Shown here one piece after another: positions 16,399-23,131 of a stretch of DNA of 64,000 bases (the first letter of the stretch is position 1; each line of letters begins with the position of its first letter). Made by a program: the position numbers and the translations under genes. The stretch lies in the NCBI GenBank assembly GCA_000182565.2, contig KQ257467.1, one strand, 5' to 3'. The stretch comes from Spizellomyces punctatus DAOM BR117. Taxonomy: Eukaryota. The notes beneath the pieces are model-generated. The model saw nothing but the letters and a program-made list of their open reading frames with translations, did no database searches and was not told the DNA's origin.

Positions 16399-19300
16399 AT
16401 GTCCTCCAGAATCCTTCTTCTCGCCTTGGCAATTGCTACTCTAGTGGTTCCCCTGGAAGGTACAACGTAGTCTTGGAGGTTTCTTGGGCCCCATGTGAAG
16501 CTAATTTTATTTTCTTGCTCACAAAGCTCAAACGGATGTGCTTGTATATCCTAATGCGTCCTATGCAGGCAGTGCATTGACCCTCCCATCGTTCCAGTAC
16601 TACTCCCCGCCCAACACCCAGGACTACACTCTTGGATCTGTTCGTGTGCCAAACAGTATTGCAGCGCTTTTCTACCAAAACCAAGATTGGGGGGTAGCTG
16701 CTGCTTTTTACGAAGATGTTGCAAGTGTCAATATATCCACTGCGAATTTGACAAGTATCACCGATTGGAATGCTTTGGTAGTCAGCTGTAAGTTTGTTAT
16801 CATACACTTGTTCAAATTATCAATGTTATAATCAATGTTGGCATTTGTAGTGAATTGCAACCCGACCTGCTCTGCAAAAGGCATCTGTACTTCCAGTGGC
16901 ACCTGCTCGTGTCCATCCAATTTTCGAGGAAGTGCTTGTGAAGAATGTAGTCCAGGTTACTACGGTCCAACTTGCCAGCCATGTCCGTCTTGTGGAAACG
17001 GATTCTGCAATGACGGTATCCACGGGAATGGTACATGCACTTGTAATGAGGGCTGGCAAAATGGCGGTGGTACTTGCGATACGTGCGCTACCGGGTATTA
17101 TTCAAATTCGACCGCCTGTTTAGGTATGTTTTTAGGAAGCTGGCTATGATCTTCTTGTCATCTCACTCTTACCTGCGGCAATCATTACAGCGTGTATCGG
17201 TTGTGGTGGCAGAGGAGAATGCACAACGACCGGAAGCTCCGCTGGAACTTGTACTTGCCAATGGGGATACAAAACAGGCAGCGATGGGATTACCTGCGGA
17301 TCATGCGCCGATAGTTTTTACAAGGACAGCAATGGGCAATGCGTTGGTAAGGGTTACATCCCGCATTCTCCTTTAGTAGTTAGATCCACACGATCAAATA
17401 ATGTATTTAACGCTGGACTTTCTTCCTGTAAGCATGCTTTCAGGGTTGCAAGCAATGCCGAAATGGGGACGGTTATTGTGAGGTATGCTGGCCAGGTAAT
17501 ACTCGCAATGCTTCCTATCCGCAAGTGTGCGATCAAGATCAAAGCTGTCCAATGGCGGCTTCGAATATGGGCCAATATTGGGATGGAACTACCTGCAACC
17601 GTAAGTCCCTTCCTTTTAATCAATCCTTCCTTCCGCTAAAATTCCTGTGCATCCCGTTACAGAGTGTGTTTTGGGCTGTGTAAAATGTCGTCAACCAGAT
17701 AAATGCGAAGACTGTGAAGGTACCACCGTGTCAGCTGGCTTGTCTGGTGCATGCACTACTATTCAGAACACCAAAGGGTGCAGAAATGCACCTACTGCAC
17801 CAGTACCTGGGCCTACGAGAGGAGACGGCCAGGCTTTTTACTCTGTCTGGATTGCCGACAAAAAGTATTGTGACGGTTGGTATCCCTTCCTTGCCGTGTA
17901 GCTCCATGTGTTAAGCCTAAGTATGCCCCTTATTACAATACATAGCATGTCCTCTAGGATGTCTTGGGTGCGGAAATCCAGCGAGCATAGTTATAAACCC
18001 GTCAGCTACAACCCGGGATGCCAACTGGAATAATCAGACGCAGAGAAATAACTTGGTTTGCACCGCTTGCGTTCCTGGATATAGCCTTGTAAGCGGCCAC
18101 TGCGTAACGAGTTGTAGCGCCGGCCAATACAATGAAGGCACTTCTACATGTCGAGGTGGGTCGTAAAAAAGCATAAGAATGTTGCCAGTTTTTGTTGCTC
18201 ATTTCATTTTTCCAGCATGCCATTCATCATGCGCAACGTGTTCCGGCCCTGGTCCTGGACGATGCACAAGCTGTCCTAATGGTATTACACTGTCAAATGG
18301 TACCTGTACACCTACCCTGTCATGTCCGGCGAACCAATTTGTGGTGAATCAACAGTGCTTTGGTAAGTCGTCATGGCTTTAGCAAGAACCTCCATAAGAT
18401 GTCTAATGTTTTCGTCTCAAAGGATGTCATCCTGACTGCCTTGAATGCACTGGACCTGCTTATACACAGTGCACCAGGTGTGCAAGCCCTCTTGTACTCG
18501 TGGGGAATCAATGTGCATTGGCATGTCCAGCAGGACAGTATATGACTTCGTCAACGGACAGGACCTGTACAGGTAAGCTCCTGTCGACCGAAACAGCATG
18601 GTTTCAATGCTGTGGTAGACTAATGTCAGGTTTTCCCATGAAGCTTGTCAAAATGGGTGCTCCACCTGCAACGGTATTGACAAATGCTTTACCTGCAGCA
18701 ACGGATACCAACTTTACCGGGGACAGTGTATTTCGTGTTCATCTCCCCAAGTATTGGATGAATTAGGCAATTGTATTAACCCACCAACAAGTATGTCGTT
18801 TTGTCTTCTTTGCAACGGTTTTGAGCGGGGGCTGATTCTGTACATACTTAGCTTCGTCATCGACGGATGCATCGTCCAGTGAGAGTTTTTCATCGACAGC
18901 TTCCTCAACAGCTTCTGATGTATCATCCAGTGAGAGTCTATCAGCAACAGAATCGTCAAGTTATGACATATCAACTCCGGCGCCATCCACCACTGCCTTC
19001 TCATCAACAGAAGGAGAATCCTCCAGTTCAGAGGAACCAACTTCTTCTCCATCGGCTACTTCCTCGTCATCAACCCTGTTTTCCAGCTCAGTGGAGCCAA
19101 CCACTTCATCATCGGCAACGGAGACGGAATCATCGTCTAGTATGACTGAAACCACAACCTCGATGCCCACTTCGTCCAATGACAACCCGTCGTCAACGGA
19201 ATCTAGCTCAACACCGTCGTCTTCCATCACAGACTCCTCATCATCAGAAGCCTTGTCCAGCTCAACTTCCGATACGTTGTCAACCACTGGGTCGAGCTCG

Positions 19301-22300
19301 CAAGAACCGAGCCCCTCACCAAGTGAGACGGTATCATCTGAACCAAGCCCTTCACCAAGTGAAACCGAGTCCTCAGCTCTATTGCCGACTTCAAGTGAAT
19401 CAAGCACCTTTTCAAGCGCATACTGGACATCAACAGATTTATGGAGTTCATCACTGTCAAGCGAGGAGCCGACATTTACACATCCCCCGAGCTCAAGTTC
19501 GTTTTCGTCATCCACAGAGTCTTCTTTCTCAGAAGAGTCTTCCAGCTCGTGGACGTCTTCGTCTTCCTATGAAATCACAAGCTTCTCTTCAAGCTCTTCG
19601 GAACCAACCTTTTCACCTACAGTGACATTAACAAGTTCGGAGGACCAAAGTTCCTCGTCTTCTACGCTGAATACATCGTCATCGTACGCGTCCTCGACAT
19701 CGGAGGAACCAACGAGTTCAGCATCTTCTGAATCGCCTTCACCGAGTGAGACATTGTCATCTAGCGAGTCATCAAGTTCAGCAGAACAAACTTTATCTTC
19801 CTCCGAATCGCCTTCACCGAGTGAGCCCGTGTCATCTAGCGCGTCATCAAGTTCAGTAGAACCAACTTTATCTTCCTCCGAATCGCCTTCACCGAGTGAG
19901 ACCGTGTCATCTAGCGAGTCAAGCTCAGCAGCGTCAACTTCGTTCTCGTCTGCTACCACCACGTCGTCATATTATGCGTCCTCTACCTCGATGGTAGAAA
20001 CAAGTTCGTCGACCTCTGAATCTCCATCGCCAAATGTGACAATCTCATCGACATTGTTATCTAGCGAATCAAGCTCAGCAGAGTCAACTCCGTTCTCGTA
20101 TGCTACCACCACATCGTCATCTTATGCGTCCTCTACGTCGATGGTAGAAACAAGTTTGTCGACCTCTGAATCTCCATCGCCAAATGTGACAATCTCATCG
20201 ACACTGTCATCTAGCGAATCATCCACTTCACAAGAGACGTCGCTTTCGTCTAATAGTTCATCGTCGTCGTACGCGTCGAGTACACCCATGCCGGAAACGA
20301 CTCTGGCACCAAGTGGGNNNNNNNNNNNNNNNNNNNNNNNNNNNNNNNNNNNNNNNNNNNNNNNNNNNNNNNNNNNNNNNNNNNNNNNNNNNNNNNNNNN
20401 NNNNNNNNNNNNNNNNNNNNNNNNNNNNNNNNNNNNNNNNNNNNNNNNNNNNNNNNNNNNNNNNNNNNNNNNNNNNNNNNNNNNNNNNNNNNNNNNNNNN
20501 NNNNNNNNNNNNNNNNNNNNNNNNNNNNNNNNNNNNNNNNNNNNNNNNNNNNNNNNNNNNNNNNNNNNNNNNNNNNNNNNNNNNNNNNNNNNNNNNNNNN
20601 NNNNNNNNNNNNNNNNNNNNNNNNNNNNNNNNNNNNNNNNNNNNNNNNNNNNNNNNNNNNNNNNNNNNNNNNNNNNNNNNNNNNNNNNNNNNNNNNNNNN
20701 NNNNNNNNNNNNNNNNNNNNNNNNNNNNNNNNNNNNNNNNNNNNNNNNNNNNNNNNNNNNNNNNNNNNNNNNNNNNNNNNNNNNNNNNNNNNNNNNNNNN
20801 NNNNNNNNNNNNNNNNNNNNNNNNNNNNNNNNNNNNNNNNNNNNNNNNNNNNNNNNNNNNNNNNNNNNNNNNNNNNNNNNNNNNNNNNNNNNNNNNNNNN
20901 NNNNNNNNNNNNNNNNNNNNNNNNNNNNNNNNNNNNNNNNNNNNNNNNNNNNNNNNNNNNNNNNNNNNNNNNNNNNNNNNNNNNNNNNNNNNNNNNNNNN
21001 NNNNNNNNNNNNNNNNTAATCAAGTCACGTCGTCGAGTTTGGTGGCAAGTAGTTCCCTGTCGGCTACGAGTACATCTCTCATTTTTGGGAGCACTATTAC
21101 TAGTGTATCTGTGACATCTTCTTCCGCGGGTGTTTCGTCTCCTGCTGCCACCATCTCGTCTGCTACAGGCTCCTCATCTCTACGTCTTCCATCACATCGA
21201 CAACAGAGGTGATCGCAGGAGGTAACCAACTGTCAAGTACCCCAGCCATCGGTCCGTCCTCATCGACTCAACACGAGACGGGCACCCCATCTACTTCCGA
21301 ATCCGTGTCAGGAACCCCTAGCGAGTCGTTAGGTTCTCCAATCGAAATGCTTGCACCTCCGCCAACATGGATCAAACAGTATTGGTGGATACCTGGTATT
21401 GGTGCATCTTTTGGGCTCGTGGGAGCATTTGCATGTCTTGCATGCGTTCGGACACGAAATAAGAGGAGAAGAGCTCTAAATACTGATCAACGGCTTCAGG
21501 AATGGGAGGCGGCTATGGTGAGGCATCGTGTGGAACAACTTGATAAACGGGGGTCACTTCTGCCTCTTGGAGCCGACTTTATGGATGGTATAGGTGCAGG
21601 GCTTCGGAAGACGGCGAACCGATTGTCGGCGGCGCTTCGTCGGCCCCTATCACTCATTCTAGGTGCCCCAGTGAATTTGAATGTACCGCCCGCTGGTTAC
21701 GCTCCGGCTTCCACTGGTGAAATGGTTGAAAAGAAACAAGATACAGATGTCGTCATTGCAGATGAACCATTACAGGACAATACACGGCGTAGGACATATG
21801 AAAGAGCAATGCAAGGGTCGTCCGGCAATATGTTGGGTAACATTCCTGAAGATGAAGTCACAAATGAAACGGATCTTATCCGATTCTCGTCTCCGCCGGT
21901 CCCGAAAGATCCCAAGGAAGGAGATCTTATGAGATTTTCACTTCCACCGGTCGCGGGCGGTAGTAAAGATGGTGGGTCGGTGCGGACCTCCACGGGCAGG
22001 TTTTCTGCCTTGCGCCGCGCTGGAAAAGGTATGGGAAAACTCGTCATGAACAAAACGCATAATGAATGTAGAAGATATAAACATTTTGTCAAAACTCATC
22101 AGGGCCTGCTCAACCTGCATCCATACCTGAAGAATCCAGTCTCCCCCAACGCCTACAATTAAATTACAACACAGACCTACGCATCGGCGAGCCTCTTCCA
22201 AGCAACAGCAACGAAAAGCGAATCTACGCTGGAACGCTTGCAAAAGACCAGGGCTTCATTCCTCGTCGTGTAGCCATCAAACACGTTTGGCGCAATGCCG

Positions 22301-23131
22301 CAGAGAGTGATGAGCAGGCTTCCGCCGCTTTTGTAAGGGAGGTGACCATCATGGCTGCATTAGCAACCAACGAAAATGTTGCTAGAATTGTTGGATACTG
22401 TACCGTCCCAAGGATTATTGTCACGGATCTCTATGAAGGTGATTTGGACTTTATTTTGGGGAATCGACGGTTTGAGTTGCCGGATGCTCGAGCCGTGAGC
22501 ATTCTCAGTGATGTTGCAAAGGCCCTGTCCGGTAAATAACTGTTTTCCAATTCGACATTAATGTTTTGGTTTTGAGAAAAAGAACCTAACTGAAAATCCT
22601 TATTTCTACCAACCAGCAACCCATGAAATGGGTTTCGCCCACGGTCGTATCCGCCCAGGCGCCGTCCTCCTCGAACGAGTTAAAAATCCCGCCCGTGTGT
22701 CCGTCAGAAACTCAATTTTAAGCTTTAGTCAATCCCAACAGCCGCGCACTTTTTGGCGGGCCCGACTGAATGACTTTAGCGCCAGTCGTCCCGACGGTGA
22801 ATCTGAATCCAAGGCGCGGATTGCGCCGCGGTATGCTGCCCCTGAATGTATTTTGACGGACAAGCAGATTACTACTGCTGGAGATGTTTATTCATTTGGA
22901 GTGTTGATATGGCAGTGTTTGACGAGGAGGACACCTTGGGAAGGGCAGGAAGATGGATACATTGTCTGGAAGATCTGTGAAGGTGAAAGGTTTAATCTGG
23001 GGGAAGTCGTCACGGGCGCTTCCATTGTGAGGAAAGAGCTGCTGGAAATCGTCCATCGATGTCTTGCCCCAGAGCCTTTTGTAAGGCCGACGATAGGACA
23101 GATTTTGGCAACACTGGAAAAGTTGAAATAG
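16399..23131 (+). CDS. Single-pass receptor-like pseudokinase with crystallin-like, EGF/furin-like Cys-rich and Ser/Thr-rich ectodomain (spans assembly gap)
   Basis: Signal peptide MSSRILLLALAIATLVVPLEA; Cys-rich exons (CSPGYYGPTCQPCPSCGNGFCNDGIHGNGTCTC; CHSSCATCSGPGPGRCTSCP); Ser-rich stalk; TM WWIPGIGASFGLVGAFACLACV followed by RTRNKRRR. Kinase fold: VAIK, FVREV, HGRIRPGAVLL, LNDFS, RYAAPE, DVYSFGVLIWQ, RPT. Confidence 0.8.
19722..20225 (+). repeat. Nested coding tandem repeats in the Ser-rich stalk: 3 x 75 nt then 2 x 150 nt
   Basis: GAATCGCCTTCACCGAGTGAG recurs at 19730, 19805 and 19880; GAATCTCCATCGCCAAATGTGAC recurs at 20018 and 20168. Confidence 0.9.
20318..21015. other. Assembly gap (N run)
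   Basis: About 700 N characters inside the repetitive Ser/Thr exon. Confidence 1.

What the first reader, a model, noticed from the sequence alone, without database searches (positions are those of the whole stretch)
16527..16787. Beta/gamma-crystallin-like domain at the tip of the receptor
Seen: exon 2 encodes VLVYPNASYAGSALTL...LGSVRVPNSIAALFYQNQDWG. This follows the Greek-key pattern (aromatic-x4-F/Y-x-G, then S-V/I-R-V, then a second aromatic hairpin) of beta/gamma-crystallin domains. Established: microbial members bind Ca2+ or glycans. Inference: this is the ligand-binding head held out on the EGF/furin/mucin stalk. I do not recall a crystallin-EGF-mucin-TM-pseudokinase architecture being described.
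Basis: inference. Interest (0 to 1): 0.7.

Follow-up and report, generated by a model that had tools for sequence, protein, structure and literature searches.

The report
Crystallin-tipped chytrid receptor pseudokinase
A soil chytrid fungus carries a gene whose outermost part is a diverged beta/gamma-crystallin-type domain without the usual calcium motif, very probably held out on a long stalk above a membrane helix and a catalytically dead kinase; databases split the gene into pieces, and what the tip binds is unknown.

Summary
Exon 2 (16527-16787) is real and encodes the quoted motifs. The crystallin call holds on sequence evidence (about 85%). A profile of four chytrid head sequences finds Protein S in the PDB at E=5e-5; 11 of 14 hits at E<=1 carry crystallin-family names. 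Against it: no Pfam match (0 of 5), the second Greek key is weak, and both AlphaFold models were unusable. The canonical Ca2+ motif is missing in 4 of 4 heads. The head is spliced in frame to EGF/CxxC repeats, and a Fimicolochytrium orthologue is colinear over about 600 residues. A conserved TKL-type pseudokinase with a membrane helix lies 2-3 gene models away in 5 of 5 assemblies where a head was found. One continuous gene is likely (about 75%) but unproven: an N run and a frame slip interrupt the stalk, and no RNA supports it. Ligand binding by the head is inference only. I found no description of this architecture in seven paper searches, and the scan had not noted it on other DNA. Verdict: new variant of a known kind, interest 0.5.

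The parts
16399..16459 (+). Exon 1: start codon and predicted signal peptide (residues 1-21 with the first codon of exon 2)
   Evidence: Hydropathy 2.06 over residues 1-19; orthologues P0004 and P0007 have a similar hydrophobic leader. No signal-peptide predictor was available.
16527..16787 (+). Exon 2: single diverged beta/gamma-crystallin-type domain, residues 22-108, no cysteines, three N-glycosylation sequons, canonical Ca2+ motif absent
16851..17346 (+). Exons 3-4: EGF/laminin-EGF-type repeats, in frame with the head through the acceptor at 16851 (the public model uses 16897 and goes off frame)
   Evidence: Pfam EGF_Teneurin E=6e-9 and EGF_laminin E=9e-9 in exon 3, weak hits in exon 4
17433..18790 (+). 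Exons 5-10: CxxC-rich repeats (72 Cys and 26 CxxC in residues 109-600, EGF part included)
   Evidence: colinear with P0007. Exons 5-7 gave no significant Pfam hit and exons 8-10 were not scanned.
18852..20317 (+). Exon 11: Ser/Thr-rich stalk (60% S+T over 484 residues) with 75-bp and 150-bp tandem repeats; runs open into the N run
20318..21016 (.). Run of 699 N inside the stalk; continuity of the reading frame across it is not shown
21018..21385 (+). Membrane-proximal Ser/Thr-rich stalk, with a frame slip near 21170-21185 that no plausible intron explains
   Evidence: S/T richness changes frame there; all candidate introns are at most 53% A+T with no branch site, against 54-73% A+T in the 12 modelled introns
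21386..21472 (+). Single predicted transmembrane helix followed by a basic stretch
   Evidence: Hydropathy up to 1.82; conserved in the 6 of 10 kinase-half models that reach it; coordinates
21872..21940 (+). Two copies of a conserved cytoplasmic D-L-[IM]-R-F-S motif
   Evidence: 2-3 copies in 10 of 10 kinase-half models
22103..23131 (+). TKL/TK-like pseudokinase (exons 22103-22531 and 22617-23131; domain from 22177): VAIK kept, no Gly-rich loop, catalytic Asp and Asn replaced, DFG reads DFS

Best explanation
The exon encodes a Ca2+-independent, diverged beta/gamma-crystallin-type domain that caps a type I surface receptor conserved in Spizellomycetales chytrids: signal peptide, crystallin head, EGF and CxxC repeats, long stalk, one membrane helix, TKL-type pseudokinase. 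Most likely working: the glycosylated head is the outermost contact and grips a polysaccharide of the cell's own wall or of the substrate. The rod and stalk act as spacer and force link, as in yeast Wsc sensors. Clustering or strain rearranges the cytoplasmic part, which signals as a scaffold and not by phosphotransfer. Shown: exon structure, in-frame fusion of head to EGF/CxxC, conserved linkage to the kinase half, loss of catalytic residues, loss of the canonical Ca2+ motif. Strongly indicated: crystallin kinship (about 0.85). Inferred: one continuous protein (about 0.75); the head as a binding module (about 0.55); a glycan as ligand (about half of that); scaffold signalling.
For: Fold: phmmer top two of 5 PDB hits are Protein S (E=0.011, 0.04). 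Chytrid-only profile A4: Protein S E=5e-5, and 11 of 14 hits at E<=1 are named Protein S, beta/gamma crystallin, clostrillin or spherulin 3a. hhalign probability 85.8%, E=5e-6, over 62 columns. The best A4 match in 5 prokaryote genomes (E=4e-6) is a Crystall domain. End-to-end register with three crystallin domains. Atlas feature hits are crystallin-clan clusters (weak). Architecture: 11 GT-AG exons give 1084 residues with no stop. P0007 is colinear over about 600 residues. Head and kinase models lie 2-3 accession numbers apart in 5 of 5 assemblies with a head model. P0007 ends in an off-frame stalk repeat, not a true C-terminus (score 88; 0 of 40 shuffles reached it). Four kinase-half models start in S/T/N-rich sequence before the helix, with no leader visible by eye. 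The catalytic Asp is absent in 8 of 8 aligned kinases. Precedent: a crystallin-fold homologue of MiAMP1 binds beta-1,3-glucan (10.1101/127746, passages); Wsc1 has a head, S/T stalk and helix and acts as a nanospring (PMC9024836, abstract and passages).
Against: No Pfam or PHROGs match, and no crystallin match in NCBIfam, for 5 of 5 head sequences. The second half alone is weak: z 2.8, 2.0, 1.8, -0.6 and 3.2. There is no internal two-fold repeat, though three control crystallins show one. Two unrelated repeat proteins outrank the crystallin hits. A4 found nothing in 3 of 5 genomes that hold crystallin relatives. P0004 alone ranks a glucoamylase above Protein S. Direct BLASTP with the best genome hit gave E=0.10. 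No public model joins head and kinase; there is an N run and a frame slip. The head is the least conserved part, and most of its invariant residues fall at positions that are structural in crystallins (the role assignment is recalled). The stalk is S/T-rich here but Cys-repeat in Fimicolochytrium, so the spring analogy is not general.
Confidence: 0.45

Rival explanations
1. Same receptor and fold, but the head is a protein-contact module (cell-cell adhesion, self-recognition or receptor clustering) or a stable structural cap, and any ligand binds the better conserved EGF/CxxC region.
For: Head 39% identical against 50% for EGF/CxxC and 73% for the kinase (the 50% is inflated by cysteines). Some crystallin domains self-associate (PMC3551895, passages). 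The Wsc1 head is needed for clustering (PMC9024836, passages).
Against: The head is kept at the tip in all three genera where it was found, with 23 invariant columns in 4 sequences. No direct evidence for a protein partner.
Confidence: 0.25
2. Two separate genes: a secreted or wall-anchored crystallin-EGF-stalk protein and an adjacent membrane-anchored pseudokinase, or a gene broken in this strain.
For: All 5 annotated assemblies split the locus. There is a 699-N run and a frame slip. No spliced reads were seen.
Against: S/T-rich stalk is open on both sides of the N run. The kinase halves have a helix but no visible leader. The Fimicolochytrium model ends off frame inside its stalk. The public Spizellomyces models go off frame right after the head, so the splits look like prediction errors.
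Confidence: 0.2
3. The head is not a full crystallin domain: only the first Greek key resembles crystallins, and the rest folds into another beta sandwich.
For: No Pfam hit. The best PDB alignments cover profile positions 3-50 of 83. The second half is weak and there is no internal repeat.
Against: Weaker hits extend to positions 61-72. hhalign aligns 62 columns. Length and spacing fit a whole domain with only short indels.
Confidence: 0.12
4. The head binds Ca2+ through a non-canonical site and reports external calcium.
For: Motif 1 is near canonical in Geranomyces (ADVLSS) and Fimicolochytrium (LDTLTS).
Against: In this gene motif 1 reads DYTLGS and motif 2 ITDWNA; 0 of 4 heads carry a canonical motif. 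Sites are built from half-sites of both motifs (PMC2929430, passage).
Confidence: 0.08

Closest known systems
Microbial beta/gamma-crystallins: Myxococcus Protein S (1prr, 1nps), clostrillin (3i9h and variants), spherulin 3a (1ag4, 1hdf)
   Same: Best PDB matches by sequence and profile; Y-x4-Y-x-G hairpin, S-x-x-V-P strand and domain length.
   Different: No canonical N/D-N/D-x-x-S/T-S motif, shortened second hairpin, no detectable internal repeat, N-glycosylation sequons, and fused to a eukaryotic receptor ectodomain.
Entamoeba transmembrane kinases (PMC2880585, passages)
   Same: Signal peptide, CXXC-rich ectodomain, single helix and tyrosine-kinase-like domain.
   Different: No crystallin head appears in the passages read. 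They are a large family, whereas one copy was found here. Their pseudokinases are defined by truncation or stops, while this one is full length and 73% conserved across genera.
Animal receptor tyrosine pseudokinases such as PTK7, ROR, RYK and HER3 (PMC13259870, abstract)
   Same: Single-pass receptor with a dead kinase fold that would signal without catalysis.
   Different: Different ectodomain. The kinase is nearest to TKL kinases CTR1 and MLT/ZAK, then CSF1R. No orthology was tested.
Yeast Wsc1-type wall sensors (PMC9024836, abstract and passages)
   Same: Small N-terminal head, glycosylated S/T-rich stalk and one helix.
   Different: The Wsc head is a PAN/Apple fold. Wsc sensors have no EGF/CxxC rod and no kinase domain.
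Secreted crystallin-fold proteins without the Ca2+ motif: Ecp4/Ecp7, MiAMP1, Sp-AMP3, WmKT (10.1101/127746, passages)
   Same: Crystallin fold without the Ca2+ motif; Sp-AMP3 binds beta-1,3-glucan.
   Different: Small, free, disulfide-bonded proteins. This head has no cysteine, and none of these appeared in my PDB searches.

Membership tests
beta/gamma-crystallin superfamily | Y/F-x4-Y/F-x-G hairpin in Greek key 1 | tested here: met
   Present in 3 of 4 heads, this one included; absent in Fimicolochytrium. Signature from PMC3551895 (passage).
beta/gamma-crystallin superfamily | Same hairpin in Greek key 2 | tested here: not met
   0 of 4 heads match the pattern. The Gly is invariant, but the hairpin is one residue short in three heads and has an insertion in the fourth. 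PMC3551895 notes that signatures vary widely in diverged members.
beta/gamma-crystallin superfamily | Significant profile similarity to solved members | tested here: met
   A4 against the PDB: Protein S E=5e-5 and 0.0052; hhalign 85.8%. The best alignments cover only the first 50-62 positions.
beta/gamma-crystallin superfamily | Match to Pfam Crystall, Crystall_3 or Inhibitor_I36 | tested here: not met
   0 of 5 alignment members at E<=10, subject to HMMER's filters.
beta/gamma-crystallin superfamily | Double Greek key eight-stranded fold | tested here: inconclusive
   AlphaFold2 pLDDT 38.6 and 42.8; fold searches on these models are meaningless.
Ca2+-binding beta/gamma-crystallins | N/D-N/D-x-x-S/T-S motif in both Greek keys | tested here: not met
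   0 of 4 heads; the three control domains have 1, 2 and 2 motifs.
Type I receptor (pseudo)kinase | Ectodomain, helix and kinase on one polypeptide | tested here: inconclusive
   Conserved linkage in 5 assemblies and open stalk on both sides, but an N run, a frame slip and no spliced RNA.
Pseudokinase | Loss of at least one of the VAIK Lys, HRD Asp or DFG Asp | tested here: met
   HRD Asp absent in 8 of 8 aligned orthologues; Lys and DFG Asp kept. Criterion from PMC4718504 (passages).
Pseudokinase | No phosphotransfer in vitro | not testable with these tools
   Needs an assay; PMC4718504 warns that sequence alone does not predict nucleotide binding reliably.
Furin-like Cys-rich repeat | Pfam Furin-like match | tested here: inconclusive
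   No such hit for exons 5-7 scanned singly or for whole P0007 at E<=0.01; exons 8-10 were not scanned.

The most novel reading that the evidence does not exclude
Spizellomycetales chytrids have an animal-like receptor pseudokinase, conserved across genera, that uses a crystallin-fold head related to microbial Protein S as a glycan sensor for wall or substrate contact during zoospore settling or rhizoid growth. It would be an undescribed use of the fold as a eukaryotic receptor head, hidden because every annotation I saw splits the gene.
Probability: 0.2. Interest if true: 0.75.

Novelty: new variant of a known kind. Interest (0 to 1): 0.5.

Why it matters
Single-pass receptor kinases with large Cys-rich ectodomains are typical of animals and amoebae and are not a feature of yeasts and moulds (recalled). 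A conserved one with a dead kinase in zoosporic fungi gives a concrete candidate for how chytrids sense surfaces or their own wall. It would also add receptor head to the known uses of the crystallin fold. In practice, the public gene models in five assemblies look wrong (off frame after the head, or cut in the stalk), so architecture searches cannot find it. The value is capped because each module is known, the ligand is unknown and the family was found in one fungal order only.

Tried and rejected
AlphaFold2 with one sequence (pLDDT 38.6) and with five (42.8): unusable. Foldseek (0 matches at E<=0.001) and VIA-align (best Z 3.3 and 3.5, no crystallin listed) on those models say nothing either way. 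Homodimer prediction of the head: no verdict, score 0.02 against a mark of 0.32; not used as evidence. RNA: no RNA holder listed. Four runs laid: two gave unspliced contigs, one gave sparse short reads with no joints, one gave nothing. Metagenome scans with the kinase alignment (0 of 177 candidates) and the head alignment (0 of 109) found no relatives. Plasmids: no match. Phages: 511 records; the 30 listed have E 1-8 and are nearly all DNA polymerase, taken as chance. NCBIfam gave one chance hit and PHROGs none. Own genome: no second copy of the head or kinase and no PF00030 or PF03995 match. P0005 (TPR) and P0006 (InlB-type repeats) were rejected as repeat-summed noise. P0013 shares only EGF repeats. 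The UniRef label 'FAS1 domain-containing' on P0002 got no Pfam support for exon 2. An intron as the cause of the frame slip was rejected. A conserved programmed frameshift is unlikely because the slips here and in P0007 go in opposite directions. Bacterial origin of the head was not tested; the similarity is too weak for a tree.

Full report
Observation. The interval 16527-16787 is one exon bounded by AG and GT. The translation of exons 1-2 is identical to the named record SPPG_07946 of Spizellomyces punctatus, so the window is from this chytrid or a very near relative.

Gene model. Eleven GT-AG exons from 16399 to 20317 give 1084 residues without a stop: leader, head, EGF repeats (Pfam E=6e-9 and 9e-9), CxxC repeats and a stalk with 60% Ser+Thr. 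A run of 699 N follows. After it, S/T-rich sequence continues, slips frame near 21170-21185, and leads into a predicted membrane helix, a basic stretch and a kinase fold in three exons. No candidate intron explains the slip: all are at most 53% A+T with no branch site, against 54-73% A+T in the 12 modelled introns. A one-base sequencing error near the gap edge is the simplest reading, but this is inference. The public 242-residue model uses an acceptor at 16897, not 16851, and reads the EGF exons off frame.

Relatives. A search of 1.84 billion representatives gave 8 hits at E<=0.001: self, two chytrid orthologues, three proteins with Pfam Crystall domains (E 3.5e-4 to 7e-4) and two unrelated repeat proteins that rank above those three. 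Heads were found in S. 'palustris', Geranomyces variabilis (two assemblies) and Fimicolochytrium jonesii. The Fimicolochytrium protein P0007 is colinear with my model over about 600 residues, including the head-to-EGF junction, which confirms the splice independently. Its stalk is made of Cys repeats, not Ser/Thr. The kinase half has orthologues in Spizellomyces, Powellomyces, Geranomyces and Fimicolochytrium. In 5 of 5 assemblies with a head model, the kinase model lies 2-3 accession numbers away on a contig of the same length. I found no head model for the other five kinase-half models. No public model joins the two halves. P0007 ends in an off-frame copy of its stalk repeat (score 88, 13 of 20 identities; 0 of 40 shuffles reached it). 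Six of 10 kinase-half models include the helix, and four of these begin in S/T/N-rich sequence with no leader visible by eye. I put one continuous gene at about 0.75. No spliced RNA was seen.

Is the head a crystallin? For: the top two of 5 phmmer hits in the PDB are Protein S (E=0.011, 0.04). A first profile of five heads, with a long off-frame tail, gave two hits, both Protein S (E=0.0023, 0.023). I then dropped P0011, which is nearly identical to P0004 in the head and carried that tail. The four-row, 83-position profile gave Protein S at E=5e-5 and 0.0052. Of 14 hits at E<=1, 11 are named Protein S, beta/gamma crystallin, clostrillin or spherulin 3a; two more (3hzb, 2kp5) I recall as flavollin and hahellin; one (LapA3) is unrelated. 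The five further hits at E 1-10 are unrelated. hhalign against three bacterial domains gave 85.8% (76.8% with the first profile). In five prokaryote genomes chosen for holding crystallin relatives, the profile gave 4 matches in 2 genomes. The best (E=4e-6) and one weak match are Crystall domains, one has no Pfam hit and one, with stops, was not scanned. Atlas feature searches point to crystallin-clan clusters (0.93 with recognition below the threshold; 0.87), which is weak.

Against: no Pfam hit for 5 of 5 heads; a weak second half and no internal repeat; nothing in 3 of those 5 genomes; P0004 alone ranks Protein S second at E=0.11; both AlphaFold models failed. Overall about 0.85 for kinship and a whole double Greek key. 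Formal membership by fold is untested.

Calcium. The canonical motif is N/D-N/D-x-x-S/T-S in each Greek key (PMC3551895 and 10.1101/127746, passages), and half-sites of both motifs combine (PMC2929430, passage). In register with three control domains, this head reads DYTLGS and ITDWNA. No head of the four has a canonical motif, though motif 1 is close in Geranomyces and Fimicolochytrium. Canonical Ca2+ binding is unlikely here.

Cytoplasmic part. [quoted passage not shown] Its nearest solved relatives are CTR1, MLT/ZAK and CSF1R. It is 73% identical to the Fimicolochytrium domain, against 50% for EGF/CxxC and 39% for the head, so it is kept under selection despite the lost residues.

Mechanism. 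The best reading is a surface or wall sensor. The Ca2+-free crystallin head binds a polysaccharide, the rod and stalk space it from the membrane, and clustering or strain is passed to a scaffold pseudokinase (0.45 overall). The analogies are Wsc1 (PMC9024836, abstract and passages), glucan-binding Sp-AMP3 (10.1101/127746, passages) and receptor pseudokinases (PMC13259870, abstract). No ligand is shown. Rivals are a protein-contact or structural head (0.25), two genes or a broken gene (0.2), a non-crystallin or half-crystallin fold (0.12) and a Ca2+ sensor (0.08); these overlap in part.

Novelty. The nearest architecture is that of Entamoeba transmembrane kinases (PMC2880585, passages). Seven searches aimed at this protein or architecture listed nothing that describes it, judged from listings. 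I also searched passages of PMC5168858, PMC7549232, PMC4695807 and PMC10574481 without finding it. The library lacks most subscription papers, one key crystallin review was not held, and I opened no supplements; domain tables in chytrid genome papers could list it. Earlier scan notes showed no look-alike. I rate it a new variant of a known kind, interest 0.5.

Noticed in passing
window:21872-21940: A D/N-L-[IM]-R-F-S motif occurs 2-3 times in otherwise variable juxtamembrane sequence in 10 of 10 orthologous models. It resembles a clathrin-box-type endocytic motif (recalled, untested) or a docking site.
   Followed up: partly
window:16851-16897: Public Spizellomyces models go off frame right after the head (acceptor 16897 in this species). 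Probably misprediction, but a real short secreted isoform is not excluded without RNA.
   Followed up: partly
P0007 residues about 630-1240 against window:18852-21385: The stalk is a Cys-repeat array in Fimicolochytrium (40 C-[VI]-C motifs in the protein) but Ser/Thr-rich here: the spacer has been swapped while its flanks are conserved.
   Followed up: partly
window:19730-20221: Recent 75-bp and 150-bp tandem duplications (93% identity) in the stalk suggest ongoing length change.
   Followed up: no
window:24711-25535 (-): An ORF that ends in a C2H2 zinc-finger-like pattern lies downstream, convergent with the receptor gene (read by eye).
   Followed up: no
L022:443-2730: In a cyanobacterial genome, two adjacent ORFs carry a crystallin domain and a C-terminal Cys-every-fifth-residue repeat; a cluster mate of P0008 is named CefA.
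   Followed up: no
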